Shown one piece after another: positions 24,643 through 63,998 of a stretch of 64,000 bases of DNA (position 1 is the stretch's first letter; every line of letters starts with the position of its first letter). The notes under the pieces are model-generated. The model made no database searches. It was not told the origin of the DNA and was given only the letters and a program-made list of their open reading frames with translations. A program made the translations under genes and the position numbers. The stretch spans positions 15,350 to 79,349 of the forward strand of contig JACQFL010000048.1 in NCBI GenBank assembly GCA_016200085.1, given 5' to 3'. The DNA comes from Candidatus Rokuibacteriota bacterium (GTDB lineage Bacteria; Methylomirabilota; Methylomirabilia; Rokubacteriales; CSP1-6).

Positions 24643-24797
24643 GACGGCGGGGCCGAGCGGGTCGGGGGTGGCTCCCGGGCGCCGTTGGGTACGCTCGAAC
24701 ATCGGCGCGCGCCGAGCGCGTTTCGCGGACGCCCCGCTCGGTGGCCCCAGTGTCAGTCGGCGCCCGGGAGCCACCCCCGACCCGCTCGGCCCCGCCG
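24643..24797. repeat. About 155-bp intergenic element with 38-40 bp G-rich terminal inverted repeats (copy 1 of a 3-copy family)
   Basis: Left arm gacggcggggccgagcgggtcgggggtggctcccgggcgcc; right arm ggcgcccgggagccacccccgacccgctcggccccgccg. Loop begins TTGGGTACGC and ends CAGTGTCAGTC. Confidence 0.6.
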
Positions 24798-24827
24798 GAC
24801 CCCGCGAGGTGTATACTCCGGAGAGTC

Positions 24828-24915
24828 GTCGTGGGGGGAGGAATCCTGAGAACCGGGTGCGGCCCGGGACCCCTCGAACCTGCTCTGGATAATCCCAGCG
24901 AAGGGAACACGCCGA
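24828..24915 (+). promoter_or_regulatory. TPP (THI-box) riboswitch upstream of thiS
   Basis: ggggaggaatcCTGAGAaccgggtgcggcccgggACCCctcGAACCTGctCTGGATAATcCCAGCGaAGGGAA. The CGGCCGCGGAG immediately 5' of the thiS ATG can pair with an upstream GGCCGCG element, which would sequester the Shine-Dalgarno sequence. Confidence 0.85.
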
Positions 24916-24980
24916 CGGATCGCGGCCGCGCCCGAAGTCTCGGGACAGCGGCCGTTGCTGTTTCCGGCCGCGGAGCGGGC

Positions 24981-25181
24981 ATGAAGGTCAGTGTCAACGG
25001 ACGCGCGATGAACCTCGACGACGACCTCAGCGTGGAAGCGCTGCTCCAGCAGCTCGGCGTGAATCGCCGGTTCATGGCCGTGGCCGTGAACCGCGAGATC
25101 ACCCCGCGCACGCGGTACGGGCAGACGGTGCTGCGCGAGGGCGATCGGGTGGAGATCGTGCGTCCGATGGGAGGGGGCTGA
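24981..25181 (+). CDS. thiS: Thiamine biosynthesis sulfur-carrier protein ThiS
   Basis: 66 aa, ends GG, immediately upstream of thiG. Confidence 0.85.
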
Positions 25182-25182
25182 G

Positions 25183-25965
25183 ATGTACGACACGTCGCTC
25201 GTCATCGGCGGCAAGGAGTTCTCGTCGCGGCTGATCGTGGGCACGGGCAAGTACTCGTCGAACGAGGTCATGCGCCAGGCCCACGAGGCCTCGGGCGCCC
25301 AGGTGGTCACCGTCGCGGTGCGCCGGGTGAGCCTGCCGGGCACCGGCGAGTCCATCCTCGACTTCATCGACACCAACCGCTACACGCTGCTCCCGAACAC
25401 CGCCGGCTGCTACACCGCGGACGAGGCCATCCGCACCGCGTACCTGGCGCGCGAGGCCGGGCTCGGCGAGATGGTCAAGCTCGAGGTCATCGGCGACTCG
25501 CGCACGCTGTTTCCCGACGTGGCCGGGCTGCTCGAGGCGACGAAGACGCTGGCGCGCGAGGGCTTCACGGTCATGCCCTACACCAACGACGACCCCGTGA
25601 TGGCCAAGCGCCTGGAAGACGCGGGGGCGGCGGTGGTCATGCCGCTCGGCGCGCCGATCGGCTCCGGGCTCGGGATCCGCAACCCGTACAACATCAAGAT
25701 CATCCTCGAGACCGTGTCGGTGCCCGTCATCGTCGATGCCGGGGTCGGCACGGCCTCGGACGCCGCCATCGCCATGGAGCTCGGCTGCGACGGCGTGCTC
25801 ATGAACACGGCCATCGCGGGCGCGCGCGACCCGGTGGCCATGGCGACGGCGATGAAGCAGGCCGTGGAAGCCGGACGGCTCGCCTTCAAGGCCGGGCGCA
25901 TGCCCAAGCGCCTCTACGCGAGCGCGTCCTCGCCGCTCGAGGGCGTGCCCGATTGGTCGAGCTGA
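25183..25965 (+). CDS. thiG: Thiazole synthase ThiG
   Basis: [24 protein letters not shown]... a full-length ThiG match. Confidence 0.9.
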
Positions 25966-26588
25966 GGCTGCTCCTCGTCACCGACCGGGCCCAGACGCGC
26001 GGGCGCGAGCTCGTCGCCGTGGTGCGGGCCTGCCTCGACGCCGGACTGCCCGCCGTCCAGGTGCGCGAGAAGGACCTCGGCGCCGCCGACCTCGCGCGGC
26101 TCTGCCGTGCGCTCCGCGAGCCGACGCGTGAGCGCGGGGCGCTGCTGATCGTCAACGACCGCGCCGACGTGGCCCTCGCGGTCGGCGCCGACGGCGTGCA
26201 GCGCACGTCGTCCTCCTTGCCCGTGGCCGACCTCCGCGCGCTCGCCGACAAGCGCCTGCTCGTGGGCGCCTCGGTGCACTCGCGCGACGAGGCGCTCGCC
26301 GCCGAGGCCGCCGGCGCCGACTGGGTCGTGTTCGGGCCCGTCTACGACACGCCGTCCAAGCGCGCCTACGGGCCGCCGCAGGGCCTCGTCGCTCTCGAGC
26401 GGGTGACGGCCGCCGTGCGCGTGCCGGTGATCGCCATCGGCGGCATCACGCCCGAGCGGGTGGGCGCCGTGCGCGCGACCGGCGCGGCGGGCGTGGCCGC
26501 GATCTCGGCCATCCTCGACGCGGAGGCGCCGGCGGAGGCCACGCGCCGGTTCCTCGACGCCCTGGGGGCCGCCGCGGGACGCTCATGA
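25953..26588 (+). CDS. thiE: Thiamine-phosphate synthase ThiE
   Basis: LLLVTDR...VQVREKD...IAIGGI motifs. Overlaps the thiG end. Confidence 0.85.
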
Positions 26589-27995: not shown

Positions 27996-28010
27996 TCCTC
28001 GGCGCGCGGC

Positions 28011-28172
28011 GACGGGGCCACGGGGGGTGGGGGGCAGGGGCCGACGAGACCACGTCGTACGCGCCCGCTACCCGATCGCGGCTGGGCTCCATCCCGGCGC
28101 CCGGGGTCCGTCGCCGGTCGGCGGGGTACGGGTCCTGCCGGCCCCTGTCTCCCACCCCCCGCGGCCCCGTCG
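28011..28172. repeat. About 160-bp intergenic element with imperfect 33-bp G-rich terminal inverted repeats (copy 2 of the family)
   Basis: gacggggccacggggggtggggggcaggggccgac ... cggcccctgtctcccaccccccgcggccccgtcg. Internal GTCGTACGCGCC. Confidence 0.5.
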
Positions 28173-29144: not shown

Positions 29145-30590
29145 ATGGCTGATCTCGCTGTCGCCCGCCCCGAGCGCTTCTTCGCCGACCGGTTCAACGT
29201 GACGCCGTCCCTGATGGAGCGGCTGCTCGGTTCCTCGCTCCGCGGGCGCGTGGACGACGCCGACGTCTACCTCGAGTACCGTATCAACGAAGAGCTGGTA
29301 CTCGAGGAAGGAACAGTCAAAAAGGCCTCTCGGCACGTCAGCCAGGGCGCCGGGGTCCGGGCCCAGGCCGGCACCCGCACGGGCTACGCCCACACCGACG
29401 ACATCTCGATCGGGAACCTCGAGGAGGCCGCACGCCAGGCGCGTTCCATCGCCGATCAGTCGAGCGCCTCGGGGATCCTCGCCGTCCCCGGCCGGCGCCC
29501 GCACGACCTCTACGCGCTGGCCGAGCCGCCCATCGTCACGGAGCTCACCCGCAAGGTCGATCTGCTCCGGCGGGTGGACCGGGCCGCGCGCGAGGCCGAT
29601 CCGCGGGTCAAGCAGGTCATCGCCAGTATTGGCAGCGAGGACGTCGTGATGCTGATCGCCACCGCGGGCGGCTGGACGGTCGGGGACGTGCGCCCGCTGG
29701 CCCGGCTCAACGTCACGGTGATCGCCGAAGAGAACGGCAAGCGCGAGATCGGGTCGTACGGCGGCGGCGGCCGCGTGGCGTTCGACTTCTTCCTCGAGCA
29801 GGATCGCTGGAGGCGCTTCGCCACCGAGGCCGCGCGCCAGGCCACCCTCAAGCTCGGCGCGCTCGACGCGCCGGCCGGCACCATGACGGTGGTGCTCGGC
29901 CCGGGCTGGCCGGGGATCCTGCTCCACGAGGCGATCGGGCACGGCCTCGAGGGTGACTTCAACCGCAAGGGCGTGTCCGCCTTCGCCGGGCGCATGGGCC
30001 AGAAGGTCGCCTCCGAGCTGGTGACGGTGATCGACGACGGGACGATCCCGAACCGCCGCGGCTCGCTCAACGTCGACGACGAGGGCACGCCCACCGGGCG
30101 CACCGTGCTCATCGAGAAGGGCGTGCTCGTGGGCTACATGCAGGACAAGCTCAACGCCCGCCTCATGGGCGCGGCCCCGACGGGCAACGGCCGCCGCGAG
30201 TCGTACGCCTATCCGGCGATGCCGCGCATGACGAACACGTTCATGCTCGCGGGGGAGGATGACCCCGAGGACATCATCCGCTCGGTCAAGCACGGGCTCT
30301 ACGCGGTGACGTTCGGCGGCGGCCAGGTCGACATCACCAGCGGCAAGTTCGTGTTCTCGGCCACCGAGGCCTACCTGATCGACGACGGACGCATCGGCGC
30401 CCCGCTGAAAGGGGCCACGCTGATCGGCAACGGGCCCGACGCCCTGACGCGGGTGAGCCGCGTGGGGCGCGACCTCGCGCTCGACGAGGGCGTGGGCACG
30501 TGCGGCAAGGACGGGCAATCCGTGCCCGTGGGCGTGGGACTGCCGACGATCCGCATCGACGGCATGACGGTCGGCGGGAGCCAGGTGTGA
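29145..30590 (+). CDS. tldD: Metalloprotease TldD
   Basis: 481 aa, canonical TldD with HEAIGHGLE-type motif. Confidence 0.9.
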   Translation: MADLAVARPERFFADRFNVTPSLMERLLGSSLRGRVDDADVYLEYRINEELVLEEGTVKKASRHVSQGAGVRAQAGTRTGYAHTDDISIGNLEEAARQARSIADQSSASGILAVPGRRPHDLYALAEPPIVTELTRKVDLLRRVDRAAREADPRVKQVIASIGSEDVVMLIATAGGWTVGDVRPLARLNVTVIAEENGKREIGSYGGGGRVAFDFFLEQDRWRRFATEAARQATLKLGALDAPAGTMTVVLGPGWPGILLHEAIGHGLEGDFNRKGVSAFAGRMGQKVASELVTVIDDGTIPNRRGSLNVDDEGTPTGRTVLIEKGVLVGYMQDKLNARLMGAAPTGNGRRESYAYPAMPRMTNTFMLAGEDDPEDIIRSVKHGLYAVTFGGGQVDITSGKFVFSATEAYLIDDGRIGAPLKGATLIGNGPDALTRVSRVGRDLALDEGVGTCGKDGQSVPVGVGLPTIRIDGMTVGGSQV

Positions 30591-31945
30591 GCGGCGTCGA
30601 TCCCGGGCTGCTCGTCTCCGTCCTGCGGCGCGCGACGGCGCGCGGGGCCACGGCGGCCGACGGCTTCCTGGTGGAGGATCGCCACTTCAGCGCCATGGTG
30701 CGGCTGGGCGAGGTCGACACGGTGACCCACTCGCAGGACCAGCGGCTCTCGCTGCGCGTCTTCTACGGGCGCGCCACCGCGGCCGCCTCGAGCTCGGATC
30801 TGTCCCCCGCCTCGCTCGAGCGCGTGGTGGACGAGGCCACCGCGCTGGCCCGCATCACCGCCGAGGACGAGCACGCGGGCCTGCCGGACCCGGCCGAGGT
30901 GATCGAGCGCGTGCCGGACCTCGACCTCGAGGACCGCGAGGCGCCGGCGCTGTCGCCCGAGGAGAAGATCGACATCGCGCGGCGGGCCGAGGCGGCCGCG
31001 CTGGCCAGCGACCCGCGCATCAGCAACTCCGAGGGCGCGGAGTCCTTCGACCGGCGCTCGCACTACGTGTACGCCGCCGCGCACGGCTCGGGTCGCGTCT
31101 TCGCGGGCGACTACGCCACCACCTCCTTCGGCATCACCTGCTCGCCGGTGGCGGCGCAGGACGGCGAGATGCAGCGGGATTCCTGGTACTCGATGGCCCG
31201 CAAGCGCGCCGGGCTGGACGACCCGGCGTCGGTGGGGCGCACGGCGGCCGCGCGCGCGCTGCGCCGCCTGGGCGCGCGCAAGGTCAAGACCACCGAGGTG
31301 CCGGTGATCTTCGATCCCGAGAACGCGGCGAGCCTGCTCCGGTCGGTCGCGGCGGCGGCCAGCGGGCCGAGCCTGTACCGCCGCGCCTCGTTCCTCGTCG
31401 AGCGCCTCGGCCAGCGCATCGCCGCCTCCGGCGTCACCATCGTGGACGACGGCCTGCGCCCGGGGGCGCTCGGCTCACGGCCGTTCGACGGCGAGGGGCT
31501 CCCGACGCGCCGCACCGCGCTCGTCGAGGACGGCGTGCTGGTGACGTACCTGCTCGACACCTACAGCGCCCGCAAGCTCGGCCTGGCCTCGACCCACCAC
31601 GGCACCCGCGACGGCGCCGGGGTGACGGTGGGGACCACCAACCTCATGCTGCTGCCGGGCACGGCCTCGCCCGACGACCTCATCGCGTCGGTCGACAACG
31701 GCTTCTACGTCACCGAGCTGATCGGCTTCGGGGTCAACGGCGTCACCGGCGACTACTCTCGCGGCGCCGTCGGGCTGTGGATCGAGAACGGCAAGCTGGC
31801 GTACCCGGTCGAGGAGGTCACGGTGGCCGGCAACCTGCTGGAGATGCTCCTGGCCATCGACGGGGTCGCCAGCGACCTCGTGCTGCGCGACCGGACCGCG
31901 GCGCCAACGCTGAAGATCGCCAAGATGGTCGTCGCGGGAGCGTGA
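30587..31945 (+). CDS. pmbA: Metalloprotease PmbA/TldE
   Basis: GTG start overlapping the tldD stop (GTGA). Typical PmbA sequence. Confidence 0.85.
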   Translation: MSGVDPGLLVSVLRRATARGATAADGFLVEDRHFSAMVRLGEVDTVTHSQDQRLSLRVFYGRATAAASSSDLSPASLERVVDEATALARITAEDEHAGLPDPAEVIERVPDLDLEDREAPALSPEEKIDIARRAEAAALASDPRISNSEGAESFDRRSHYVYAAAHGSGRVFAGDYATTSFGITCSPVAAQDGEMQRDSWYSMARKRAGLDDPASVGRTAAARALRRLGARKVKTTEVPVIFDPENAASLLRSVAAAASGPSLYRRASFLVERLGQRIAASGVTIVDDGLRPGALGSRPFDGEGLPTRRTALVEDGVLVTYLLDTYSARKLGLASTHHGTRDGAGVTVGTTNLMLLPGTASPDDLIASVDNGFYVTELIGFGVNGVTGDYSRGAVGLWIENGKLAYPVEEVTVAGNLLEMLLAIDGVASDLVLRDRTAAPTLKIAKMVVAGA

Positions 31946-47572: not shown

Positions 47573-49135
47573 TCAGGCGTCCAGCGAGTCCATGAAGCCG
47601 GCGATCTGCTCGACGCGCACGCCCGAGACCGCGATCTCCGGCGCGTAGATCACCTCGTCGGCCGCCCACACGATCGTGCCCTTGGCCTCTCTCGTCACGC
47701 CCATGACGTTCTCGAGCACGGTGGCGATGTTGTCGTTGATACGCAGCGCGTTGGCGCGCAGGGGCGCCGCCAGGCGGCCGTCGCGGATGACCCAGGAGTC
47801 GCCGACCACGGTGCAGGTGAAGTCGCCGGCGCGCAGGCCGTTGACCGGGTACGTGTACCAGATCCGGCCGACGTAGAGGCCGTCGCGCACCGTGCGGATC
47901 AGCTCCTCGAGGCTCACGGCCTCCGCGCCCTGCACCACCACGTTGGAGGCCGCCACGCCGGGGCCGCGGTCGAACTGGCGGCCGCCGCCGGCGCCGAAGC
48001 GGAAGCCGTTGCGCGGCACGAGCGCCCGCGCGGCCTCGTCGCCCGTCGCGCCGAGCTTGGCGGCCAGCGCCGGGTCGCGCAGCAGGCGCTGGGTCTGGTA
48101 CCAGCTGGACAGGCAGCCGACGAGCACGCCGTCCCTGATCAGGTCGGTGCGTCCCGTCGGCAGGCCCTCGCACGTGATGCCCTTGGAGCCGGTGTAGCCG
48201 GGGACGTTGCCCGCGTCCCAGACGCTCAGGCGCGGCGAGGCCACCTGCCGGCCGAGGCGGCCGAGGAACGGCGTGTTCGAGGCGTAGAAGGTGCCGGCGG
48301 AGCAGGCGGGCACGATGACGTTGTTGAGCAGGTCGCTGACCGGCTGCTTGCCGAAGATGACCGTGTACTCGCCCGAGGGCACGCGCTCGCCGCCGACGGC
48401 GGCGATGGCGTTGCCCGCCGCCTCGATGCCGGCCTCGTCGGAGAACTCCTCGAGGCGCGTGCCCGTCGACCAGCCCGAGCCCTTGGCGTCGCGCGCTTCC
48501 ACCATCGCCGTCACGAACGCCGTGATCAGGGTGGACTCGTCCGTCTGCGCCTCGGGCATGCGCGTCGAGACGATGGCGATGCGCTCCTGGAGGATCGTGA
48601 CGTCGCCGCCGAGGATGAGCCCCAGCGCGCGCAGCGCCTCGTCGCTGCCCGCCAGCTCCGCCAGCCTGGACGAGGCGAGGAAGGTGCGGAGCGCGCCGTT
48701 GACGATCGTCCAGCCCGCGCCCACGAGGGCCTCGTCGTCGATGGCCAGGAGCCTCGGGTCGGCGTAGTCCGTGAGGGTGCGCCGCTCGCGCGCCGGCTCG
48801 GGCAGGGAGACGAAGTCCGGATCGCGCACCGCCGCGGCGCGCGCCTTGTCGAGCGCGCGGCGGGCGCCCGCCTCGCCGAGGTCGGTGGGCTCGCTGCCGA
48901 AGCCGACCACCGGGCCCTGGGGCCCGTCGAAGACCACGTGGAGGCCGAGGCCCGAGGACTCGTCGGACTTCGGCTCCTCGACCCCGTTCGAGGGGATGTG
49001 CGAGGTGTAGCAGAGCCGGGTGAGCAGGCTCGCGTTCGAGGCGACGAAGACCTCGACCTCGCGCACGCCGGGCGCCCGGCGCGCGCCCTCGAAGGCGATG
49101 CGCGCGGCGCGCTCGAGCTCGGTCAGGGTCCGCAC
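47573..49135 (-). CDS. TldD/PmbA-family metallopeptidase homolog (divergent, 520 aa)
   Basis: TldD/PmbA fold, lacking a signal peptide. GAGGTGA Shine-Dalgarno sequence overlapping the upstream rhodanese stop. GTG start. Confidence 0.75.
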   Translation of the reverse strand: MRTLTELERAARIAFEGARRAPGVREVEVFVASNASLLTRLCYTSHIPSNGVEEPKSDESSGLGLHVVFDGPQGPVVGFGSEPTDLGEAGARRALDKARAAAVRDPDFVSLPEPARERRTLTDYADPRLLAIDDEALVGAGWTIVNGALRTFLASSRLAELAGSDEALRALGLILGGDVTILQERIAIVSTRMPEAQTDESTLITAFVTAMVEARDAKGSGWSTGTRLEEFSDEAGIEAAGNAIAAVGGERVPSGEYTVIFGKQPVSDLLNNVIVPACSAGTFYASNTPFLGRLGRQVASPRLSVWDAGNVPGYTGSKGITCEGLPTGRTDLIRDGVLVGCLSSWYQTQRLLRDPALAAKLGATGDEAARALVPRNGFRFGAGGGRQFDRGPGVAASNVVVQGAEAVSLEELIRTVRDGLYVGRIWYTYPVNGLRAGDFTCTVVGDSWVIRDGRLAAPLRANALRINDNIATVLENVMGVTREAKGTIVWAADEVIYAPEIAVSGVRVEQIAGFMDSLDA

Positions 49136-49139
49136 GGCG

Positions 49140-49559
49140 TCACCTCGCGGGCGTGCCCGCCGCGCGGCCCTCGACGGGGTAGCCCTTCTCCTGCCAGCCC
49201 GGCAGGCCCTCGTCGAGCACCTTGTGGTTCCGCCACCCCATCGCGTACAGCATGTTGCTGGCCCCCCGGGACAGCGCGTGGGGGCAGCCTCAGTAGAAGA
49301 CGGCGAGCCCCGTCTTCGTGATCTCGCCGGCGCGCTCGGGCACCGCGCGCAGCGGCATCGAGCGCGCGCCCTTGATGTGCAGCTCCGCGTACTCGGCCCA
49401 GTGGCGCACGTCGATGATGTCCGCCTTCGTGCCCGCGGCGAGGGCGGCGTGCAGCTCGGCGACCTTGATGAAGGCCACGGGGGACTCGGGCGGCGCCGCG
49501 GGCGCGGCGCCCAGCAGCACGCCGGCCGCGGCGAGCACGGGGATCAGGGTGCGGCGCAT
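49140..49559 (-). CDS. Periplasmic single-domain rhodanese (sulfurtransferase) selenoprotein. In-frame TGA at 49290..49292 at the active-site Cys position (VFY-U-GCPHALSRG).
   Basis: Signal peptide MRRTLIPVLAAAGVLLGAAPAAP. The rhodanese core (ADIIDVRHWAEYAELHIKGARSMPL...) runs up to the TGA. The same frame continues for 49 more codons through the rest of the domain (GASNMLYAMGWRNHKVLDEGLPGWQEKGYPV) to a TGA at 49140. It sits between two TldD/PmbA-like genes with 4-nt gaps. Confidence 0.65.
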
Positions 49560-49563
49560 GGGG

Positions 49564-51126
49564 CTAGCCTCCGAGGATCCGGGCGCGGCTGCGCATGGTA
49601 GGCCCGCCGTTGCCGAGCTTCTTGACCTGCATGGGCTGGCCCTTGCCACAGTTGGGGATGGGGTAGAGCGTGAAGTCGGAGCCCACGGCGTCGACGTTGA
49701 GAAGATAGTCGCGCGTGTCAGCGGCGATGCCGCCGTCGCGGTAGACCTGCCCCAGCTCGCCGTGCACGATCTCGTACACGCGGCGCGCCGAGATGCGGAA
49801 GTTCTCGCGGCTCTCGGCGATGGACGGCGTGCGGTGACCGCACACGTACCAGCCGCGGTCGACCTCGCGGATCATCTCTGCGGCCTCGCGGTCGCCGCCC
49901 GCGAAGACCGTGTTCGACATCCGGATCAGCGGCACCAGCGAGGCCTCGGTGGCCTTGAAGTGGCCGTTGGGCGCGCCCCCGAAGATCGCCGCGGTCTGGC
50001 GGCTGTTCATGAAGCCCTGGAAGATCCCGCGATCGATGTGCACCACGCGCCGCGCGGGCGTGCCCTCGTGGTCGTAGGCGTAATGGCCATAGCCGGGGAG
50101 CGCGGGGTCGGAGAAGGCGGTGACCAGCGGCGAGGCCACGCGCTTGCCGACCTGGTGCTGGTCGAGCCCGCGCAGCAACCAGGAGCGCCCGGCATACGCG
50201 GTCTCCATCTTGAGCGCGCGATCGAGCTCGACGGGGTGGCCGATGATCTCGTGGGACACGAGCGTGTTGTAGTGCGGATCGGTGACCACGACGACCTCGC
50301 GGTCCGACGAGGGCAGTACCGGCGCCTCGGCCATCTCGCCCGCCTCGCGCGCAAGATCGAGGGCGAGATCGACGAAGGGCGGGAAGCGGATCCACGGCTC
50401 GCTGACCCCGGTGGCGAGGATCTCCCAGCCGCGCTGATGGCCGGCCGCGTCGGAGATCCCGTGGCTCGTGGAGCCCGAGACCCCGACGGCGCTCACCCAG
50501 CCCTGGGTCAGCGCGAAGGACTGGTCGATCAGGCTGCCCTCGCTGGAGGCGAAGAGCTCGCGCGAGAGCTGGGTGAGCACGCCGATGTAGTTGTAGGACA
50601 CGCGCGGATCGCGCCCCGCGACCTGGCGCGAGACGTCGACGGCGTAGCGCACCATCTCGCCGAGCGGCATCGCGCGGGGGTCGATCGCGTACTCGGCGGC
50701 CACCGTGTCCTCCCGGACCTCGACGGGATGCAGGCGCGTGTCGGCCAGCGCGGCGCCGAGGGGACCGTGCTTGCCGCGCGCCTGGGCCTTCATCTCGGCG
50801 TTGACCCACGCCCGGCGGTAGGCGCGCTCCAGCGCCGCGCGGATAAGCCGCTCGAGGTCGGGGAGATCGGCGGCGCCGAGCGCCTGACCCATCCAGCCGG
50901 CCGCCACCGCGCGGTCGCCCGCGAGCACGCGGACCCCGAGGGCCAGCGTCGCGTCCTCGCCCGCGTACCGCGCGGCACCGTTCTCCGCCCCGGCGGACTT
51001 CGCCTCGGTGACCTCAAGGCGCAGGTCCGCATAGCGCAGGTGCGGCAGCCGCCCGGCAGCGTTGCGGAGGAGGTCACGCGCGCTGGACTTCACCGAGTCG
51101 AGATGGTCAACGCGTATCGGTGCCAC
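49564..51126 (-). CDS. TldD/PmbA-family metallopeptidase homolog (divergent, 520 aa)
   Basis: GAAAGGAG Shine-Dalgarno sequence and GTG start. TldD/PmbA fold. Confidence 0.75.
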   Translation of the reverse strand: MAPIRVDHLDSVKSSARDLLRNAAGRLPHLRYADLRLEVTEAKSAGAENGAARYAGEDATLALGVRVLAGDRAVAAGWMGQALGAADLPDLERLIRAALERAYRRAWVNAEMKAQARGKHGPLGAALADTRLHPVEVREDTVAAEYAIDPRAMPLGEMVRYAVDVSRQVAGRDPRVSYNYIGVLTQLSRELFASSEGSLIDQSFALTQGWVSAVGVSGSTSHGISDAAGHQRGWEILATGVSEPWIRFPPFVDLALDLAREAGEMAEAPVLPSSDREVVVVTDPHYNTLVSHEIIGHPVELDRALKMETAYAGRSWLLRGLDQHQVGKRVASPLVTAFSDPALPGYGHYAYDHEGTPARRVVHIDRGIFQGFMNSRQTAAIFGGAPNGHFKATEASLVPLIRMSNTVFAGGDREAAEMIREVDRGWYVCGHRTPSIAESRENFRISARRVYEIVHGELGQVYRDGGIAADTRDYLLNVDAVGSDFTLYPIPNCGKGQPMQVKKLGNGGPTMRSRARILGG

Positions 51127-53841: not shown

Positions 53842-53987
53842 GGCAGGGGTGGGGCTGGAGAGGGGTCCCGGGAGCCCTTGGGTACGCGTGGAGAACGGCG
53901 CGCCTCGATGACCGCGACAGCGTGTCCCCGGCGGAGAGTAGGCACAGTCAGTGGGCTCCCGGACCCCTCTCCAGCCCCACCCCTGCC
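53842..53987. repeat. About 145-bp intergenic element with 35-36 bp G-rich terminal inverted repeats (copy 3 of the family)
   Basis: ggcaggggtggggctggagaggggtcccgggagccc ... gggctcccggacccctctccagccccacccctgcc. Loop begins TTGGGTACGCG and ends CACAGTCAGT. Confidence 0.6.
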
Positions 53988-54130
53988 TTCGCCGACGCCC
54001 GCGCCATCACGCGCCGCGTGGCTGTAAAGTGGCTTGACAGGCGTCGCCTCCTGTCACTACTGTAGCGCCGGGTACAGTCGGGTCCCACTTTCCATCAGCC
54101 CCTGTCATCGAGGGCAGGAGGTCGCGCGCG

Positions 54131-54469
54131 ATGCCCGCTAAGCTGTTCGTCGGCAACCTCTCGTTTCAGGCCCCGGAGGAGGATCTGCGCGAGCTGTTCG
54201 CGCAGGCAGGGACCGTTGAGACGGTCCGCATCATCACCGATCAGTTCACCGGGCGCCCGCGCGGATTCGGCTTCGTCGAGATGGCGACCAAGGAAGAGGC
54301 GACCAAGGCCGTGGAGATGCTCAACGGCCGGCTCTTCAGGGATCGCAATCTTGTCGTCGACGAGGCCCGTCCCCAGCCCCAGCGCGGCCCCGGCGGCGGA
54401 GGCGGTGACCGTGGCCCACGCGGCCCGCGCCCCGGCGGCGGGGGCGGCGGAGGCGGCTGGCGCCGCTGA
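54131..54469 (+). CDS. RRM-type RNA-binding protein with Gly/Arg-rich tail
   Basis: KLFVGNLSF (RNP2) ... RGFGFVEM (RNP1). Confidence 0.85.
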   Translation: MPAKLFVGNLSFQAPEEDLRELFAQAGTVETVRIITDQFTGRPRGFGFVEMATKEEATKAVEMLNGRLFRDRNLVVDEARPQPQRGPGGGGGDRGPRGPRPGGGGGGGGWRR

Positions 54470-54477
54470 CGTCCGTG

Positions 54478-54512
54478 CGGGGTGAGCGGCGGTCGAGCGG
54501 GATCGGCCGCCG
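54478..54512. terminator. Bidirectional GC-rich hairpin between convergent genes
   Basis: gcggcggtcgagcgggatcggccgccgc. Confidence 0.4.
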
Positions 54513-54515
54513 CGC

Positions 54516-56693
54516 TCAGAACAGGTTGAGCTGCGCCGCCGGGTCGGCCTCCGGGGCGGGTGGCCGCAGCGCCGTGTCCTCCGTGAACGCGCGGAAGCGG
54601 TCCCAGATCTCGCGAACCTTCGCCTGGTAGTACTCGACGTTCTCGTCGGGCGCGGCCGGGTCCCACTCCGTCACCAGACGGGCGCGCTCGTTCACCGCCA
54701 CCGAGGCGCCCCGTCCCGCCACGTAGTACGCGATCTGATCACCGGGCTGCCAGGGCCGTCCCGACGCGCACGCGAGCTCGTAGCCCGCCGACGGGTTGCG
54801 CGCGCCCGCCCGGATCTTCTCGCGGTAGGCCTCGAGGGACTCGCCGAGGGTCTCGGTGCGCGCGAAGAGCTTCACGGGCACGCGGCGGTGGGCGAAGTCG
54901 TCGAGCCAGCGATCGACGGCGAGCCTGACCTCGGGAGCGCGGCCGGTGAGGAGCAGACCGATGACTTCCTCGATCAGGCGGCGCTGGAAGGGCTCGAGGC
55001 CGCGCGAGCGGAAGCCCGAGCCCCTGAGCGTGACGCGCCCGCGGTCGTCGAGCAGCGCGTAGGTCTTCGCCTTGTAGGAGAACATCGCGGCGTAGCGCTC
55101 CTCGAGCTCGAGCTGGATCCCGGCCGGGAGCGCCGGCGCCACGCGCTCCAGGAGGGTCTCGTGGGCGGGCGGGGCGTGCTGCGGAGGCGGCACGAAGTAG
55201 ACGCCGTCGGTATCCGCCTCGACGACGACCGCGCCCAGCTCGCCGAGCCGGTCGATGATTGCCCGGATCACGCCCTGGCCCTGGGACGTGACCCGGTTGG
55301 CGGCGTCGAAGTCGTTCCAGTGGCCGTGGCCGAAAGCGAGGTAGCCGTAGAAGGAGTTGATGAGGATCTTGAAGGACTGCGACAGCGCGGCCCAGTGCGC
55401 CCGCTCGTCGGCGGTGGCGGCGGCTTGCATCCGTCGCTTGGCGTCGACGCGGACGTCGCGCAGGTGGGCCAGCAGCGTCGGGAAGGCGCCCAGGTGATCG
55501 CTCGCCGGCGCGATGCCGGAGGCCAGCATCAGCGACGGGTACAGCGAGGTCACGTCGGCGTGCAGCACGGGCCGGGCGACGCCTTCCCGGAAGAGCGCGA
55601 CGTAGCCGCCGCCGACCGCGGTGCCCGGGCGCGGCGCCGGCACGGCCTGGCGCTCGTGAAGGTACGCGCGCATGAGCAGGGCGTCCACCTTGGCCGCGCT
55701 GCCGCGCAGCATCGCCGACTGGTAGTCGAACGGCACGAGCTGGGCCTGGGCGAAGTACGGCGGCGACAGGATCTCGGAGATCCTCAGCGTCTCGAGGGCG
55801 TCGTCGGCGGCGTAGGCCATCAGGCGGTCCGGGGCCTCGCGCAGCTCGCGGGCGATGGCGGAGGCGTCGACGTACGTCCGGTCGGGCGCGGCCACGCCGA
55901 AGTGTCGCGCGATGTCCTTGAGCCCGAAGGAGGGCAGGTCGCGCGCGCCGACGTCGAAGAGCTGGGCGAGCATCCAGGTGTCGACGATGGCGCGCCCGGC
56001 GACGTCGTAGCGGCGGTAGTCGAGCGTGCGCTCGGCGATCTGCAGGCGGCTGTAGCGCCCGCGCAGCGCGCTGCCGTCGCGGCCCCAGGCCAGGCTCACC
56101 CCGTGACGGCGGGAGCGGGCTTCGAGGTATTCCAGGTCGAACCGGAAGATGTTGTGGCCCTCGAGGACGTCGGGATCGCGCTCGCGGATGATGCGGGTGC
56201 ACTCGGCGAGGAGCTCGGCCTCGCCCATGCGGTCGCCCCGGATCACGTGCGAGAAGCCGCCGCTGTCGGCCAGGCCGACGGCCACGATGCGGTCACCCTC
56301 GCGGGCGGCGTTGGGGAAGTCGTAGCCCTCGGTGGTGACGACCTCGATGTCGAGGGCCAGCCTTCGCAGGTCCTTGAACGTCATGCCGCCGAACGACGTC
56401 CGCCCGGTCGAGAGGAGGTACTGGTGCACGGGGTCGGGAAGGAAATGGTAGGGCGCATCGGCAGCGCCGGGTCCGCGGCCGCTGGCCTGGCGGCACCGGT
56501 CGCGCGCGGCGAGCGCCGCGGACCACGACCCGAAGCGGGCGAGCCAGCGGAAGGCTCCCGGCCCGTCGAGCTTGACGAGGTCGACGAGACCGTCGGCGCC
56601 CGCGAGCAGGACCTCCTCCGCCGCGAGCAGGAACGGCGCGAAGGCGTCGGTCTCGACGGCGATGCCCGACGGGGAGCGGCGGTAGAGCCGCAT
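54516..56693 (-). CDS. Family-B DNA polymerase (Pol II-like)
   Basis: Exonuclease motifs, SLYPS, KILINSFYG (motif B), ADTDGV (motif C variant). Confidence 0.75.
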   Translation of the reverse strand: MRLYRRSPSGIAVETDAFAPFLLAAEEVLLAGADGLVDLVKLDGPGAFRWLARFGSWSAALAARDRCRQASGRGPGAADAPYHFLPDPVHQYLLSTGRTSFGGMTFKDLRRLALDIEVVTTEGYDFPNAAREGDRIVAVGLADSGGFSHVIRGDRMGEAELLAECTRIIRERDPDVLEGHNIFRFDLEYLEARSRRHGVSLAWGRDGSALRGRYSRLQIAERTLDYRRYDVAGRAIVDTWMLAQLFDVGARDLPSFGLKDIARHFGVAAPDRTYVDASAIARELREAPDRLMAYAADDALETLRISEILSPPYFAQAQLVPFDYQSAMLRGSAAKVDALLMRAYLHERQAVPAPRPGTAVGGGYVALFREGVARPVLHADVTSLYPSLMLASGIAPASDHLGAFPTLLAHLRDVRVDAKRRMQAAATADERAHWAALSQSFKILINSFYGYLAFGHGHWNDFDAANRVTSQGQGVIRAIIDRLGELGAVVVEADTDGVYFVPPPQHAPPAHETLLERVAPALPAGIQLELEERYAAMFSYKAKTYALLDDRGRVTLRGSGFRSRGLEPFQRRLIEEVIGLLLTGRAPEVRLAVDRWLDDFAHRRVPVKLFARTETLGESLEAYREKIRAGARNPSAGYELACASGRPWQPGDQIAYYVAGRGASVAVNERARLVTEWDPAAPDENVEYYQAKVREIWDRFRAFTEDTALRPPAPEADPAAQLNLF

Positions 56694-56874
56694 GGCGCAG
56701 CCGCCATCGGCGAGGTCGAAGGCCAGCAGGCCGGGGGTGCGATCCCAGCCGAGGAGCAGGGAGTCTACCGCCGCGCCTCCGCCACCAGCGCGCGAGACGA
56801 CTCCAGGTGCCCAACGGTGGCGCGGCCCGTGGAGGGGGCGAAGACGGCGGCGATCAGCGCGACGGGTGCGTGGC

Positions 56875-57060
56875 TCATGACGGGATTCTACCGTGTCTCC
56901 ACGACTCGACGCGACCCGAGCGAAGCGTCACGGTGACGTCGGCGATCGCGGGGTCGACATCGCGGATCTCGATCTTCTCTATGTCCGCCGTCGCAATATC
57001 GCGCGCGTCGAGCTCGTGCTGGAACGCCGGCCAGTTCTCTGGACGGAACCCGTACGTCAT
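56875..57060 (-). CDS. Small hypothetical protein (61 aa)
   Basis: GGGGAAAGGCGGAG Shine-Dalgarno sequence before ATG. MTYGFRPENWPAFQHELDARDIATADIEKIEIRDV... Confidence 0.35.
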   Translation of the reverse strand: MTYGFRPENWPAFQHELDARDIATADIEKIEIRDVDPAIADVTVTLRSGRVESWRHGRIPS

Positions 57061-57176
57061 GCCGCTCCGCCTTTCCCCGTGGCGTGTGGAGTCGCCGCGC
57101 GCGTGACGTCGCCTCGCCTCGTACTCTCCCACGTGCGTGGGGTGGGCGCAATCGCCGTAGGCGCCGACGTCACGGT

Positions 57177-58053
57177 ATGCTGAAGCGCATGCCCTCCCGG
57201 AGCGGCGTCTCGCGTGCGCGCGGAGGATCGTGGACGATCGTCATCGTGCTGCTGCTCGCGGCCGGATGCGCCAGCGTCAGCTTCCCGAGCCTGTCACCCA
57301 CGCCGTCGATCCGGATCACCGGCCGGATCTTCCGGCCCAAAGGGCGCGGCCCGTTCCCGGCGGTGGTGCTGCTGCACAGCTGCCACGGGGTCTCGGCGTC
57401 GGCCCCTCGACTGGGGGCGATGGTTCGCGACGGAGGGCCATGTCGCGCTCGTGGCCGATAGCTGGGGAGCGCGCGGGATGAAGGAGAGCTGCACGCCGGC
57501 GTCGAAGGACGTCGAGACCACCGCGCGGCTCGACGACGCGCTCGGGGCGCCGCGTTTCTTACAGTCCGACCCCACGGTCGATCCGCGGCGCGTCGGCGCC
57601 ATCGGCTGGTCCAACGGCGGGGATTCGCCATCGGCGTGATCAACGGCCCGAGTCTCGAGCGGGCGCGCGCACGCGGCGTGGCCGTCCCCGAGCCGGGCTT
57701 TGCCGCTGCCGTCGGGGTGTATCCGGGCACGTGCGGGCCGTTCACGCCGGAGCTGGTGGTGCGGCCGCTGCTCGTGCTCATCGGCGAGGCGGACGACTGG
57801 ACGGTCGCCCGGCGCTGCGTCGAGATGGTCGAGGCGATGCGGGCGCGCGGCGCCGAGGCCTCGATCGTGCTCTATCCCGGTGCCTACCACTACTTCGACA
57901 TCGAGGGCCAGGCCAAGGCCTACCTCGCCGACGTGAAACCAGAACAAGCCCGACGCCTGCTGCGGCGCCACCGTCGCCTACGACCCCGCCGCGGCCGCCG
58001 ACGCCCACCGCCAGGTGCGCGACTTCTTCGGCTATCATCTCAGGGCCCGGTAG
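57177..58053 (+). pseudogene. Dienelactone hydrolase-family lipoprotein gene, disrupted by at least 3 frameshifts
   Basis: Homology runs across three ORFs in different frames (57084.., 57214.., 57636..). The C-terminal segment …ATVAYDPAAAADAHRQVRDFFGYHL is in yet another frame. Lipobox LLLAAGCAS. Confidence 0.6.
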
Positions 58054-58105
58054 GACATCGAAGGGGACCTCGCCGGCCCCCTCCGAGCCAGCGAGGAGAC
58101 GACCG

Positions 58106-58885
58106 ATGGATCTCGGACTCAAGGGGAAGACGGCGCTGGTCACGGCGTCGAGCAAGGGCATGGGGCGGGCCTGCGCGCTGGGGCTGGCCGCAGAGGGCGC
58201 GCGGGTGGTGATGTGCGCGCGGACCGAGGCCGATCTCCAGGCCACCGCCGATGACGTCCGGGCCAGGACGGGCGCCGAGGTCCTCGCGCTGCCCGCGGAC
58301 GTCACCAGGGAAACGGACGTGAAGAATCTTGTCGCGCGCGCCACCGAGCGGTTCGGCGGCGTGGACATCCTCATCGCCAACGCGGGCGGGCCGCCGCGCG
58401 GCAACTTCGACGACGTCAACGACCAGCAGTGGATCGGCGCCTTCGAGGTCTCCGTCCTCTCCGTGGTCCGGCTGATCCGCGCGGTGCTGCCGTCGATGCG
58501 GAAGAAGCGGTGGGGGCGGATCCTCACCATCCAGTCCGTGTCGGTCAAGCAGCCCGTGGAGGGGCTGCTCCTCTCCAATGCCGTGCGGCCGGGCGTCGCC
58601 GGCATGATGAAGACCATGACGCCCGAGCTCGGGAAGGACAACATCACGTTCAACGTGCTGTGCCCGGGCCGGATCATGACCGAGCGCTTGCTCGGTGGCG
58701 CCAGGCAGGCGGGCATGCCGGAGAAGGAATACCTCGAGAAGGTCGCGCTGGACATCCCGCTGCTCCGCGTGGGCACCCCCGAGGAGTTCGCCAACGTCGC
58801 GGTGTTCCTGGCCTCGGAGCGCTCCTCCTACGTCACGGGCGTCGCGCTGCAGATCGACGGAGGAGTGGTGCGCGCGCTGCTCTGA
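58106..58885 (+). CDS. SDR family oxidoreductase
   Basis: TASSKGMGRA ... NAG. 259 aa. Confidence 0.8.
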   Translation: MDLGLKGKTALVTASSKGMGRACALGLAAEGARVVMCARTEADLQATADDVRARTGAEVLALPADVTRETDVKNLVARATERFGGVDILIANAGGPPRGNFDDVNDQQWIGAFEVSVLSVVRLIRAVLPSMRKKRWGRILTIQSVSVKQPVEGLLLSNAVRPGVAGMMKTMTPELGKDNITFNVLCPGRIMTERLLGGARQAGMPEKEYLEKVALDIPLLRVGTPEEFANVAVFLASERSSYVTGVALQIDGGVVRALL

Positions 58886-61429: not shown

Positions 61430-62302
61430 ATGGATTTCTCGCGTACGAGCGCGTGCGTTCTGTCCCGAGGGATCGGGCTCCTCGTGCTCGTCACTCTCGT
61501 GCTCGTGGCCGGCTGCGGCAGCGGGCGCGTGGTCCTCCCGCTGACCATCGACGGCGGGGCGTCGCCTCCGGGCAGCGATCCCCGCACCTTCACCACCGAC
61601 GAGTCCGCCGTCCGCGCGATCGCCGCGCTCATGGTCCACGAGCTGGACCTGCCCATCCCCGACCGCCTCACGGTCTTCGTCTACGAGTCGCGGCGCGTGT
61701 TCGAGCAGGGGCTCGTGCACGACGGGCAGATCGCGCCGGTGCGCGCCGCCGAGCTGGGTGAGTTCGCCATCGGGGTGGGCAAGCGCCGCCAGCTGTTGCT
61801 CAACTCCGAGGGGGCCGATCGCCGGGGGCGGGAGTGGCTCCGGCTCATCGCCCACGAGCTGACCCACGTCTCCCAGATCGAGCTGGCCCAGGGCGAGGGC
61901 CGGGCCGAGCAGTGGCTCGCGGAGGGCATGGCGGAGTGGGTCGCCTTCAGCGTGCTGGAGCGCCTGCGCCTCGACACCGTCGCCCACCGGCGCGTGGTCT
62001 CGCGCTCGGGCATCCGCAACTACGCGGCCCTGGTCGCCGCCCGCCTGGACATCGAGACCCTGGGCTCGCCGCGTGGCTTCACCGTCCGCCACCGGCGCGA
62101 TGGCTCGCTGCCCACGTACCAGCTCGCGTTCCTGATGGCCGATTACCTGATCGAGCGCGAGGGGTTCACCAAGGTGATCGAGTACTTCCGGTCGTTCTCG
62201 ACCTCGCTCGACCGCCACGAGAACTTCGAGCGAGCGTTCGGCCAGACCCTGGCCGGCTTCGAGAGCGAGATCCTGACCCACCTCAAGACCGTCGTTCCCT
62301 GA
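61430..62302 (+). CDS. Lipoprotein with an HExxH zincin-like motif (putative metallopeptidase; DUF-like)
   Basis: Lipobox LVAGCGS. HELTHV...EGMAEW. Confidence 0.55.
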   Translation: MDFSRTSACVLSRGIGLLVLVTLVLVAGCGSGRVVLPLTIDGGASPPGSDPRTFTTDESAVRAIAALMVHELDLPIPDRLTVFVYESRRVFEQGLVHDGQIAPVRAAELGEFAIGVGKRRQLLLNSEGADRRGREWLRLIAHELTHVSQIELAQGEGRAEQWLAEGMAEWVAFSVLERLRLDTVAHRRVVSRSGIRNYAALVAARLDIETLGSPRGFTVRHRRDGSLPTYQLAFLMADYLIEREGFTKVIEYFRSFSTSLDRHENFERAFGQTLAGFESEILTHLKTVVP

Positions 62303-63998
62303 CGCCGGCGCTCCGGCGCCGCCACGCGACAGCCGCCGCCGTCGCCGCCCCCAGCACGCTCACGGCCATCCCGGCCGCGTCCGCGGGCCCGGGCGCGTAG
62401 ACCAGATCGATGCGCGCGCCCGGTGCCGGCGCACGCACCTCGAGATCGCCCGCCATCCCGCGCCGCAGGGCCACGGGCCGGCCGCCGCTCGTCGCCGTCC
62501 AGAGGGGGTAATAGGCGAGTCCCGCCGGCGCCCAGCCCGGGGACGCGGCGGACGCGACGAGCTGCCACCGGCCGGGGCCCAGACGCACGGCGCCGGGCGC
62601 CGGGCCGGAGCGAAGGAACAGCACGAACGGCGGGGACGTCACCCGGCGCGCGAACGTGCGATCGACGGCGAGGGCGCGCAGACGGGGCACGTCCTCGTCC
62701 AGGGCCACGATCACGCTGATCCCCAGCCGATCGACGACGGCGTCGAAGGCCGCGGCGTCGATCGTTGCGAGGGGCTCGCCGAAGACGCTGACGCCGTCGA
62801 GCTGCTCGGCGAGCTCGCGTAGCGGCGCGCGCCCGTCGCGGGGCCCGCGGTAGAAGAACGCGGCGACCGGTGAAGGGTGGGTGAACGTGCCCGAGATGAT
62901 CGCGCGCCCGGCGAAGAGCGGGGTGAGCGCGGTGACGTGGGTGTGCGGCCGGTACCACTCGCGGCCGTAGACGAGCGGCACCCCGGAGCGCAGGAAGAGC
63001 ACGCGGCCGGGTGGCGCGGCACGCAGCGCGTCCCAGAGCGCGGTGAGGCGGAGCCCGCGCGCCGTCGGCTCCCAGGCGGGCCACTCCGCGGCGCGCGCCC
63101 ACAGGGTGAGGGTGCCCGCGGGCAGCGAGAGCAGCACGGCCGCGGCGATCGCCACGCCGCTGGCGGCAGCGAGACGGCTGTTGGAGTATCGAGGAGCGGC
63201 CTGGGTTCCCCGGGGCGCTCCCGAGCGTGGGGGGCTTGGGGGCCATCTCGGGGCCCCCATGTGAGTCAATCCCAGCAGCCAGCGTCCGCCGACGGTACCC
63301 GCCGCGAGCACGGATGCCATCGCGACGCCGTCGACGGCGCGGTTCGCCGGCAGCCAGCGCAGCCCGAGCGGCTCCACCACCAGGGCGTCGAGGGCGACGA
63401 GGCCGGCGGCGACCAGCGGCAGCGCGCCCACGAGCAGCCCGGCCGGCGCGGACAGCGCGCGCGAGCGCCGGACCGCGATCAGCGCGGCGACCGCGAGGAG
63501 CGCGGGCAGGGGACGGAGCAGGAGCTCCGGCTGGAGCGCGCCCCACGCGAGCGCCCGCGCCTCCGCGAGCCGCACCAGGAGGGGCAGCGTCCAGAACGCG
63601 GTGAAGGCCGCCGCGAGCGCGAGGACGAAGGCCGCCGCCACCAGACGCTTCCGGCGCTCACCGCCCACACCGAGGGCGGCGAGGATGACGGCGGCGACGG
63701 CGGTGGGGAGGTGCGCGGGGTGGGTGAGCACGACGAGGGCGACGAGCGGCGCGCTGGCGAGGGGCGGACGGACAGCCGTCCATCCCGCGAGGACGAAGAC
63801 GAGGAGCGGCAGCAGCGCCCAGCCGAGCCGCGCCGCCACCATCCCGATGTGCAAGCCGCCTTCGACGCCGCTCGCCAGCCCGCCGGAGAGGGTCAGCGCG
63901 ACGAAGGCGCCCGGCAGCGCGGCCCAGCCGTTGCCGGTCAGCCGGGTCAGGGCCAGCCACGCCGTGAGCCCGGGCGCCACGTAGATGAGCCAGAGCAT
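62283..63998 (-). CDS. Large hypothetical polytopic membrane protein. It may extend past the window end.
   Basis: 571-aa ORF with many hydrophobic segments and a 20-nt overlap with the convergent lipoprotein gene. Function unknown. Confidence 0.5.
   Translation of the reverse strand: MLWLIYVAPGLTAWLALTRLTGNGWAALPGAFVALTLSGGLASGVEGGLHIGMVAARLGWALLPLLVFVLAGWTAVRPPLASAPLVALVVLTHPAHLPTAVAAVILAALGVGGERRKRLVAAAFVLALAAAFTAFWTLPLLVRLAEARALAWGALQPELLLRPLPALLAVAALIAVRRSRALSAPAGLLVGALPLVAAGLVALDALVVEPLGLRWLPANRAVDGVAMASVLAAGTVGGRWLLGLTHMGAPRWPPSPPRSGAPRGTQAAPRYSNSRLAAASGVAIAAAVLLSLPAGTLTLWARAAEWPAWEPTARGLRLTALWDALRAAPPGRVLFLRSGVPLVYGREWYRPHTHVTALTPLFAGRAIISGTFTHPSPVAAFFYRGPRDGRAPLRELAEQLDGVSVFGEPLATIDAAAFDAVVDRLGISVIVALDEDVPRLRALAVDRTFARRVTSPPFVLFLRSGPAPGAVRLGPGRWQLVASAASPGWAPAGLAYYPLWTATSGGRPVALRRGMAGDLEVRAPAPGARIDLVYAPGPADAAGMAVSVLGAATAAAVAWRRRSAGVRERRS

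What the first reader, a model, noticed from the sequence alone, without database searches (positions are those of the whole stretch)
53842..53987. Third copy of the inverted-repeat element, upstream of an RRM RNA-binding protein gene
Arms of 35-36 bp (ggcaggggtggggctggagaggggtcccgggagccc and its reverse complement, with one indel) enclose about 75 nt. That segment starts TTGGGTACGCG and ends CACAGTCAGT, nearly the same loop termini as copy 1. Three copies in 64 kb, all intergenic, suggest a high genome-wide copy number. Proximity to an RRM protein gene raises the possibility of a structured RNA partner.
Basis: seen in the sequence. Interest (0 to 1): 0.6.

Follow-up and report, generated by a model that had tools for sequence, protein, structure and literature searches.

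The report
Lineage-specific intergenic long-hairpin repeat element
A real 146-bp hairpin-forming repeat, one of three in this Rokubacteria window, is missing from the same sites in related genomes, so it is most likely a small selfish DNA insertion rather than an RNA partner of the neighbouring RRM gene.

Summary
Window 53842-53987 has a 36-nt arm, a 75-nt centre and a 35-nt arm, fully paired apart from one bulged C, and lies far beyond chance. Two more elements share the geometry: c1 (24645-24797) and c2 (28010-28172). All three are intergenic, and independent assemblies of the same population reproduce them.

The RRM interpretation is not supported. Relatives at 76-88% protein identity keep the SDR-RRM-PolB and M20-binding-protein synteny but have spacers about 150-180 nt shorter and no such hairpin. 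c1 and c2 are not near RRM genes. The centres fold no better than shuffled sequence. Rfam has no match.

Similarity between copies is mosaic. c1 and c3 share the inner stem and centre, c1 and c2 share the outer arm, and the four differences at confidently alignable arm positions are all compensated on the opposite arm.

My best reading, at about 0.45 confidence, is a non-autonomous hairpin-dependent mobile repeat resembling REPINs or MITEs. It fails strict membership tests for both: no target-site duplication, no conserved REP ends, and an unpaired centre. I found no transposase and could not obtain a genome-wide copy number. Interest is modest.

The parts
53842..53877 (+). c3 5' arm, 36 nt, G-rich with a G-quadruplex-type motif. 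The inner 15 nt (GGGTCCCGGGAGCCC) is shared with c1.
53878..53952 (+). c3 unpaired centre, 75 nt. It starts TTGGGTACGC, ends GTCAGT, and has CGGCGCGC at positions 19-26, as in c1. It has no excess fold stability of its own.
53953..53987 (+). c3 3' arm, 35 nt, C-rich. It pairs fully with the 5' arm apart from one bulged C.
24645..24797 (+). c1: 40/40 perfect arms and a 73-nt centre. It lies between a promoter-like site for the minus-strand gene (24496-24468) and the extended -10 / TPP riboswitch of thiS-thiG-thiE.
28010..28172 (.). c2: 42-nt arms (36 Watson-Crick pairs, 3 G.T, 3 A.C) and a 79-nt centre unrelated to c1/c3, so its orientation is undefined. It starts 14 nt after the M20 peptidase stop codon and ends 51 nt before the binding-protein gene.

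Best explanation
The element is one copy of a lineage-specific family of non-autonomous, hairpin-forming DNA repeats of about 146-163 bp. Each has 35-42 bp G-rich/C-rich arms around a non-pairing centre of about 75 nt. Copies have inserted into harmless intergenic positions in this Rokubacteria lineage. What appears to be maintained is the ability of one strand to fold into a long hairpin, not the arm sequence. By analogy with REPINs and IS200/IS605-type elements, I infer that the folded single strand is the form handled by a trans-acting enzyme encoded elsewhere in the genome. This would probably be a single-strand (HUH/Y1-type) transposase, because no target-site duplication is present. Shown here: the elements are real, share a geometry, are partly homologous, are absent from orthologous sites in relatives, and keep pairing through compensated changes. 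Inferred: mobility itself, the single-stranded DNA intermediate and the type of enzyme. Any effect on neighbouring genes, including the RRM gene, would be incidental.
For: (1) Relatives lack the elements at syntenic sites. For c3 the spacer is 345 nt against 197 and 149 nt. For c2 it is 228 nt against 45 nt in the 88% relative. For c1 the 85% relative has only 203 nt ahead of thiS, which also has to hold the riboswitch. (2) In 82 kb of relatives there is no inverted repeat with arms of 18 nt or more and no covariance-model hit above 18.4 bits. (3) All three copies lie outside genes. c1 sits between two divergent promoter-like sites, so it is probably outside both flanking transcripts. (4) Pairing is kept through compensated substitutions at alignable positions: termini CGGC/GCCG (c1), CGAC/GTCG (c2) and GGCA/TGCC (c3), and inner stem GGGCGCCG/CGGCGCCC (c1) against GGGAGCCC/GGGCTCCC (c3). 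[quoted passage not shown] (5) There are no target-site duplications (flanks), as for single-strand transposition. (6) c2 carries six transition mismatches, split evenly between strands, which fits an older copy decaying neutrally. (7) No Rfam family matches and the centres have no fold signal.
Against: No transposase, RAYT, recombinase or reverse transcriptase is present in the 64 kb window. Mobility is inferred only from absence in relatives at 76-88% protein identity. Their spacers are too diverged to give a base-precise empty site, so loss in relatives or origin in place is not excluded. Only three copies are known, and the genome-wide count is unknown. The copies are very divergent: c1/c3 outer arms are no more alike than composition predicts (p = 0.74), and c2's centre is unrelated. 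That is unlike a recent burst of a classical MITE or a REPIN population clustered around a master sequence. The model built from c1 and c3 finds c2 only marginally, at 22.6-24.4 bits against a noise ceiling of 21.6. No matches appeared in genome, metagenome, viral or plasmid collections. Both large scans returned exactly 20 stretches, so an output cap may have hidden true hits.
Confidence: 0.45

Rival explanations
1. The element acts as RNA. It could be a small RNA gene, or a cis-acting intercistronic hairpin (terminator, insulator, mRNA stabiliser or RNase III site) transcribed with the flanking genes.
For: c2 and c3 lie 14 and 56 nt downstream of co-directional genes. The centres of c1 and c3 have the same orientation as those genes. 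Stem pairing is kept by compensated changes. If the conserved block upstream of the RRM gene is a leader rather than a promoter, c3 could sit in an SDR-RRM read-through transcript.
Against: No Rfam family matches. The centres fold no better than shuffles. No U-tract or terminator-like site is present. c1 lies between divergent promoter-like sites, not downstream of a gene. c2's mismatches are three G.T on each strand, so no strand is favoured. The model scores c2 equally on both strands. The elements are absent from orthologous sites in relatives that keep the same genes.
Confidence: 0.17
2. The element is a host DNA-level site: a cruciform or G-quadruplex-prone motif bound by a nucleoid, topoisomerase or recombination protein, recognised by shape rather than sequence. 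Bacterial BIME/REP sites that bind gyrase or IHF, and integron attC sites, are comparable cases.
For: Geometry is conserved while sequence varies. Elements account for 5 of the 14 strict G-quadruplex motif clusters in the window. Placement is intergenic.
Against: The family is absent from relatives, which is unexpected for a core chromosomal function. No attC R-box motifs (RYYYAAC/GTTRRRY) occur at the ends. No integrase is nearby, and the flanked genes are syntenic housekeeping genes, not cassettes.
Confidence: 0.1
3. The three hairpins arose independently in place, by template-switch or fold-back replication errors that extend short palindromes. On this view they are not a family.
For: The outer arms of c1 and c3 are unrelated yet perfectly self-complementary. 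The copies show different degrees of decay: 0, 1 and 6 defects.
Against: c1 and c3 share a 22-nt junction (20 of 22), the 3' terminus and an internal CGGCGCGC at the same position; the centre alignment gives p < 0.0005. c1 and c2 share the outer terminus (p about 0.02). All three have nearly the same arm and centre lengths. Relatives of the same composition show no such events in 82 kb.
Confidence: 0.06
4. One reading: the element encodes a structured RNA that is the binding partner or regulator of the adjacent RRM protein.
For: Proximity only: the element ends 143 nt upstream of the RRM start codon.
Against: RRM orthologues in relatives lack the element. The other two copies are not next to RRM genes. 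The RRM gene has its own conserved leader that can pair with its ribosome-binding site, and this leader is separate from the element.
Confidence: 0.03

Closest known systems
REPINs (REP doublets forming hairpins, mobilised by RAYT tyrosine transposases; Bertels and Rainey 2011, PMC3116915)
   Same: Extragenic, roughly 100-150 bp, and predicted to form a long hairpin as a single strand. Compensatory changes on the two sides keep the hairpin. No target-site duplication. Encodes no enzyme of its own.
   Different: In REPINs the two ends are highly conserved (invariant 16-mers overlapping short REP palindromes) and the less conserved spacer also pairs. Here the ends share only about 9 nt (CGRCRGGGG), the mid-arms are effectively unrelated between c1 and c3, and the central 73-79 nt does not pair. 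No RAYT gene was found, and the over-represented 16-mer criterion could not be tested.
Bacterial MITEs (for example Correia/NEMIS, ERIC, RUP, Nezha). Features quoted from general knowledge.
   Same: Small non-coding intergenic elements of 100-200 bp with terminal inverted repeats, present or absent between related genomes, able to fold into stem-loops if transcribed.
   Different: Classical MITEs have terminal repeats conserved between copies and short direct target-site duplications. Here there is no duplication, the arms differ between copies but are compensated within each copy, and no parent IS with matching ends was seen.
IS200/IS605-derived palindrome-associated elements (PATEs). From general knowledge.
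   Same: Depend on single-strand hairpins, leave no target-site duplication and carry no terminal inverted repeats in the DDE sense. c1 and c3 have a short quasi-palindrome (GGCTCCCGGGCGCC / GGGTCCCGGGAGCCC) at each junction with the centre.
   Different: Those elements have two separate subterminal hairpins and a conserved 4-5 nt target next to the left end. Here the two ends pair with each other over 35-42 bp, and the left flanks (..CGAAGA..GCGCGG..GCGCGC) share no motif.
Integron attC sites. From general knowledge.
   Same: Conserved in folded single-strand structure rather than in sequence, with a variable central region and a similar size range.
   Different: No R''/R' core motifs, no integrase, no cassette array. 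The genes between c1 and c2 are syntenic housekeeping genes in relatives that lack the elements.

Membership tests
REPIN | Two highly conserved REP sequences (each a short imperfect palindrome) in inverted orientation at the two ends | tested here: not met
   Only about 9 terminal nt are shared. The c1/c3 outer arms are no more alike than composition predicts (p = 0.74). A short quasi-palindrome exists at the inner junction of c1 and c3 but not of c2.
REPIN | The whole element, spacer included, folds into a hairpin, with compensatory changes | tested here: inconclusive
   The arms pair (40/40, 36/42, 35/35) with compensated substitutions. The 73-79 nt centre does not pair and has no fold signal.
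REPIN | Many copies per genome and a cognate single-copy RAYT gene flanked by the repeats | not testable with these tools
   Only 64 kb of this genome was reachable. The window has no transposase-like gene.
MITE (DDE-transposase derived) | Terminal inverted repeats whose sequence is conserved between copies | tested here: not met
   Arm alignments between copies are weak or not significant (p = 0.02-0.18 for whole arms). BLAST finds only the 22-nt c1-c3 junction.
MITE (DDE-transposase derived) | Direct target-site duplication flanking each copy | tested here: not met
   Flanks are AAGA|GACC (c1), GCGG|GGCT (c2) and GCGC|TTCG (c3), with no consistent duplication.
MITE (DDE-transposase derived) | Presence/absence at orthologous sites between related genomes | tested here: met
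   Absent at all three syntenic sites in relatives at 76-88% protein identity. The empty sites are not alignable base for base.
Intrinsic (Rho-independent) terminator | G+C-rich stem with a short loop followed by a U-tract, downstream of a gene | tested here: not met
   The scans call no terminator-like site. The loop is 73-79 nt. The 3' flanks are GACCCC, GGCTCG and TTCGCC. c1 is not downstream of any gene.
Curated structured RNA family (Rfam 15) | Match to a covariance model at its gathering score | tested here: not met
   The only window hit at gathering score is the TPP riboswitch. The elements match only generic miRNA-hairpin models at 17-45 bits, against thresholds of 53-150.
Integron attC | R''(RYYYAAC)/R'(GTTRRRY) core sites, a cassette array and a nearby integron integrase | tested here: not met
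   The ends are CGRCRGGGG...CCCCYGYCG. The neighbours are syntenic housekeeping genes and no integrase is present.

The most novel reading that the evidence does not exclude
The elements may belong to a class of mobile or recombination substrates defined by shape rather than sequence. In this reading a Rokubacteria enzyme recognises a long G/C-polarised hairpin with a large unpaired centre. The arm sequence would then be free to vary, or be regenerated from the opposite arm at each event. That would explain perfect self-complementarity alongside near-complete divergence between copies. It would be a chromosomal analogue of attC-type structure-specific recognition in an uncultured phylum.
Probability: 0.1. 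Interest if true: 0.7.

Novelty: new variant of a known kind. Interest (0 to 1): 0.3.

Why it matters
If this reading is right, the uncultured, large-genome phylum Rokubacteria (Methylomirabilota) carries its own family of hairpin-dependent selfish repeats. I found no description of such repeats in the searchable literature. The family has an unusual property: the geometry and self-complementarity of the hairpin are preserved while the sequence diverges almost completely between copies. This matters in practice for annotation. These elements resemble structured RNAs or regulatory palindromes and sit next to promoters and a riboswitch, so they could be mistaken for regulators. They could also modulate neighbouring genes incidentally. 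For the specific claim I was given, the result is negative: nothing ties the element to the RRM protein.

Tried and rejected
1. Public-collection scans with the c1/c3 junction motif CCGGGNGCCNTTGGGTACGC.
- Genome contigs returned 20 hits in unrelated phyla, about the number expected by chance for 18 specified bases. None had flanking complementarity above 8 bases.
- Metagenome contigs also returned 20 hits, none with a hairpin.
- Viral contigs returned 0 hits.
- Both large scans returned exactly 20 stretches, so a cap may have hidden true hits. Absence elsewhere is therefore not proven.

2. blastn of c1 and c3 against 72,556 plasmids found no match.

3. Attempts to extend beyond the window, or to find strain polymorphism, through exact protein look-ups. 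The contigs of this organism in the index are short or lie inside the window, and two look-ups found no record.

4. A base-precise empty site. The spacers of the 87-88% relatives are too diverged to align around the insertion points.

5. A search for partial copies or solo arms in all fetched DNA found none.

6. A retron (msr/msd with a1/a2 repeats) was considered from memory and rejected. The 75-nt centre is too short and there is no reverse transcriptase.

7. Y RNA, 6S RNA and ribozyme classes were rejected because Rfam gave no hit even at E <= 10.

8. My early impression that a G-rich 5' arm in all three copies indicated a shared orientation was wrong. Reverse-complementary arms show this on both strands, so only the centres of c1 and c3 define an orientation.

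9. My first assumption that c1 lies downstream of a co-directional gene was also wrong. The upstream gene is on the minus strand.

10. One search was an incomplete script and gave no result.

Full report
**Observation**

Window 53842-53877 (GGCAGGGGTGGGGCTGGAGAGGGGTCCCGGGAGCCC) is the reverse complement of 53953-53987 apart from one bulged C. The 75 nt between them starts TTGGGTACGCG and ends CACAGTCAGT.

It is far beyond chance:
- The 30-nt arm and its complement are the only two matches in the window, with none expected in 100 shuffles.
- The element folds at -110.3 kcal/mol against -70.6 +/- 4.2 for shuffles, z = -9.5.
- In 20 randomisations of the window, no inverted repeat with a 30-140 nt loop reached more than 20 matched bases.

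Two further elements have the same geometry:

| Copy | Coordinates | Arms | Centre |
|---|---|---|---|
| c1 | 24645-24797 | 40/40 perfect | 73 nt, TTGGGTACGCT...CAGTGTCAGT |
| c2 | 28010-28172 | 42 nt, 36 Watson-Crick pairs | 79 nt |
| c3 | 53842-53987 | 36/35 nt, one bulged C | 75 nt |

They are not assembly artefacts. c3 is identical in an NCBI MAG contig and three independent Logan assemblies. c1 and c2 are identical in another contig of that MAG.

**Organism and context**

The window is 67-76% G+C in 2-kb steps. Names attached to identical and near-identical proteins place it in Candidatus Rokubacteria / Methylomirabilota.

I called genes by codon-position GC content and ran Pfam on the neighbours:
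- c3 lies between an SDR gene (stop at 53785) and an RRM-domain gene (54131-54469). A convergent family-B DNA polymerase gene follows.
- c2 lies 14 nt after an M20 peptidase gene and 51 nt before a periplasmic binding-protein gene.
- c1 is not downstream of a co-directional gene, contrary to my first impression. The gene to its left is on the minus strand (23243-24307).
- c1 sits between a promoter-like site for that gene (24496-24468) and an extended -10 (TGTATACT) just ahead of a TPP riboswitch (24824-24924). The riboswitch controls thiS-thiG-thiE.
- The window contains no transposase, recombinase or reverse transcriptase, including in its poorly annotated gaps.

**Is it linked to the RRM gene?**

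No. The SDR-RRM-PolB arrangement is conserved in other Rokubacteria. Their SDR-to-RRM spacer is 197 nt (87% relative, L045) or 149 nt (76% relative, L046), against 345 nt here, and the element is missing.

What is conserved upstream of the RRM gene is a separate block downstream of the element (about 54033-54136). It may be a promoter (perfect -35, weak -10). It may instead be a leader whose CCTCCTGTC pairs with the GGGCAGGAGG ribosome-binding region: 24 predicted pairs, one compensatory, the rest invariant and so uninformative. If any structured RNA at this locus belongs to the RRM gene, that leader is the better candidate.

**Are the other copies conserved?**

No.
- The 88% relative has 45 nt between the M20 and binding-protein genes, where the window has 14 + 163 + 51 nt.
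- The 85% relative has only 203 nt ahead of thiS, which also has to hold the riboswitch.
- Across 82 kb of relatives there is no inverted repeat with arms of 18 nt or more.
- A covariance model built from c1 and c3 finds nothing above 18.4 bits there, and those hits are short hairpins.

So the family is restricted to this lineage among the genomes I could reach. The relatives' spacers are too diverged to give base-precise empty sites.

**Relationship between the copies**

Similarity is mosaic:
- c1 and c3 share the inner 15 bp of the stem (13 of 15), the first 10 nt and last 6 nt of the centre, and CGGCGCGC at the same internal position. The centre alignment gives p < 0.0005.
- The outer arms of c1 and c3 are no more alike than their composition predicts (p = 0.74).
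- c1 and c2 share the outer arm (CGGCGGGGCC against CGACGGGGCC, p about 0.02) but not the centre.
- The covariance model recovers c2 only marginally: 22.6-24.4 bits, about equal on both strands, against a noise ceiling of 21.6 bits.

c2 therefore belongs by architecture and arm terminus rather than by overall sequence.

At the confidently alignable arm positions (the shared termini and the inner stem), all four differences between copies are matched on the opposite arm. There are two at the termini and two in the inner stem, and the inner-stem pair are transversions. The pairing is therefore maintained, not merely inherited.

c2's six mismatches are all transitions, three G.T on each strand. 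No strand is favoured, which fits an older copy that is decaying.

**RNA or DNA?**

Several results argue against a dedicated structured RNA:
- Rfam gives nothing beyond generic miRNA-hairpin models far below threshold.
- The centres fold no better than shuffled sequence on either strand.
- No terminator-like U-tracts are present.
- c1 lies between divergent promoter-like sites.
- c2's mismatch spectrum and its model scores are symmetric between strands.

c2 and c3 could still be transcribed by read-through and then act incidentally as large RNA hairpins.

**Best explanation and comparison with known systems**

The most economical reading is a non-autonomous DNA repeat whose single-stranded hairpin is what matters for its spread. 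A trans-acting enzyme encoded elsewhere would handle it. The absence of target-site duplications points to a single-strand (HUH/Y1-type) mechanism rather than a DDE transposase.

The closest described class is the REPIN. It is extragenic, forms a hairpin and commonly shows compensatory changes (PMC3116915). Membership fails on defining features:
- REPIN ends are highly conserved REP sequences and the spacer pairs.
- Here the ends are barely conserved and a 73-79 nt centre does not pair.

Classical MITE membership fails on conserved terminal repeats and target-site duplications. attC, terminator and Rfam memberships also fail. I therefore file the element as a new variant of the general kind "intergenic hairpin-forming repeat", with mobility inferred rather than shown.

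**Limits**

- Only three copies are known.
- Both large DNA scans returned only chance hits. Each returned exactly 20 stretches, so a cap is possible.
- Viral and plasmid collections gave nothing.
- I could not reach the rest of this genome.
- The copy number, orientation statistics and partner enzyme that would settle the question remain open.

**Verdict**

The family is real but small and loosely defined. The RRM and structured-RNA interpretation is not supported. The element is most likely a selfish hairpin repeat specific to this Rokubacteria lineage. Interest is modest, at 0.3. It would rise if a genome census showed a large family defined by shape rather than sequence.

Noticed in passing
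window 54033-54136: A conserved block upstream of the RRM gene (CTTGACAGGCGTCGCCTCCTGTCACTACTGTAGCG ... GCCCCTGTCATCGAGGGCAGGAGG) is shared with relatives at 87% and 76% identity. It could be a promoter (perfect -35, weak -10). It could instead be a leader whose CCTCCTGTC pairs with the ribosome-binding site: 24 predicted pairs, one compensatory, the rest invariant. Rfam has no match. It may be an autoregulatory or temperature-sensing leader of the RRM gene.
   Followed up: partly
window 24824-24924 (+): A TPP riboswitch (RF00059, 56.3 bits against a gathering score of 54.3) lies ahead of thiS (24981-25181), thiG (25183-25965) and thiE (25953-26588). Copy c1 ends 26 nt upstream of it.
   Followed up: yes
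window 54485-54514; L046 11284-11321: A short G+C-rich hairpin lies in the 46-nt gap between the convergent RRM and PolB genes, and an equivalent hairpin follows the RRM gene in a 76% relative. It is probably a shared terminator without a U-tract.
   Followed up: no
window 56693-58106: About 1.4 kb next to the PolB gene has no confident gene and no Pfam hit. Relatives carry DSBA-like and dienelactone-hydrolase genes at the corresponding position, so this may be gene decay or replacement.
   Followed up: partly
window 23243-24307 (-) and 62283-63998 (-): Two sizeable genes with good codon-position GC signal (334-354 aa, and 571 aa or more, running off the window) have no Pfam family at E <= 1e-5.
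   Followed up: no
window 29145-31945 and 47573-51126: The window holds two separate pairs of PmbA/TldD-type metallopeptidase genes. The second pair has a small rhodanese gene between its members, and this arrangement is conserved in relatives.
   Followed up: no
window 2416-3711 (+): A multihaem cytochrome c gene with MtrC/MtrF-like, c554, c7 and NapC/NirT-type domains lies near the left end of the window.
   Followed up: no
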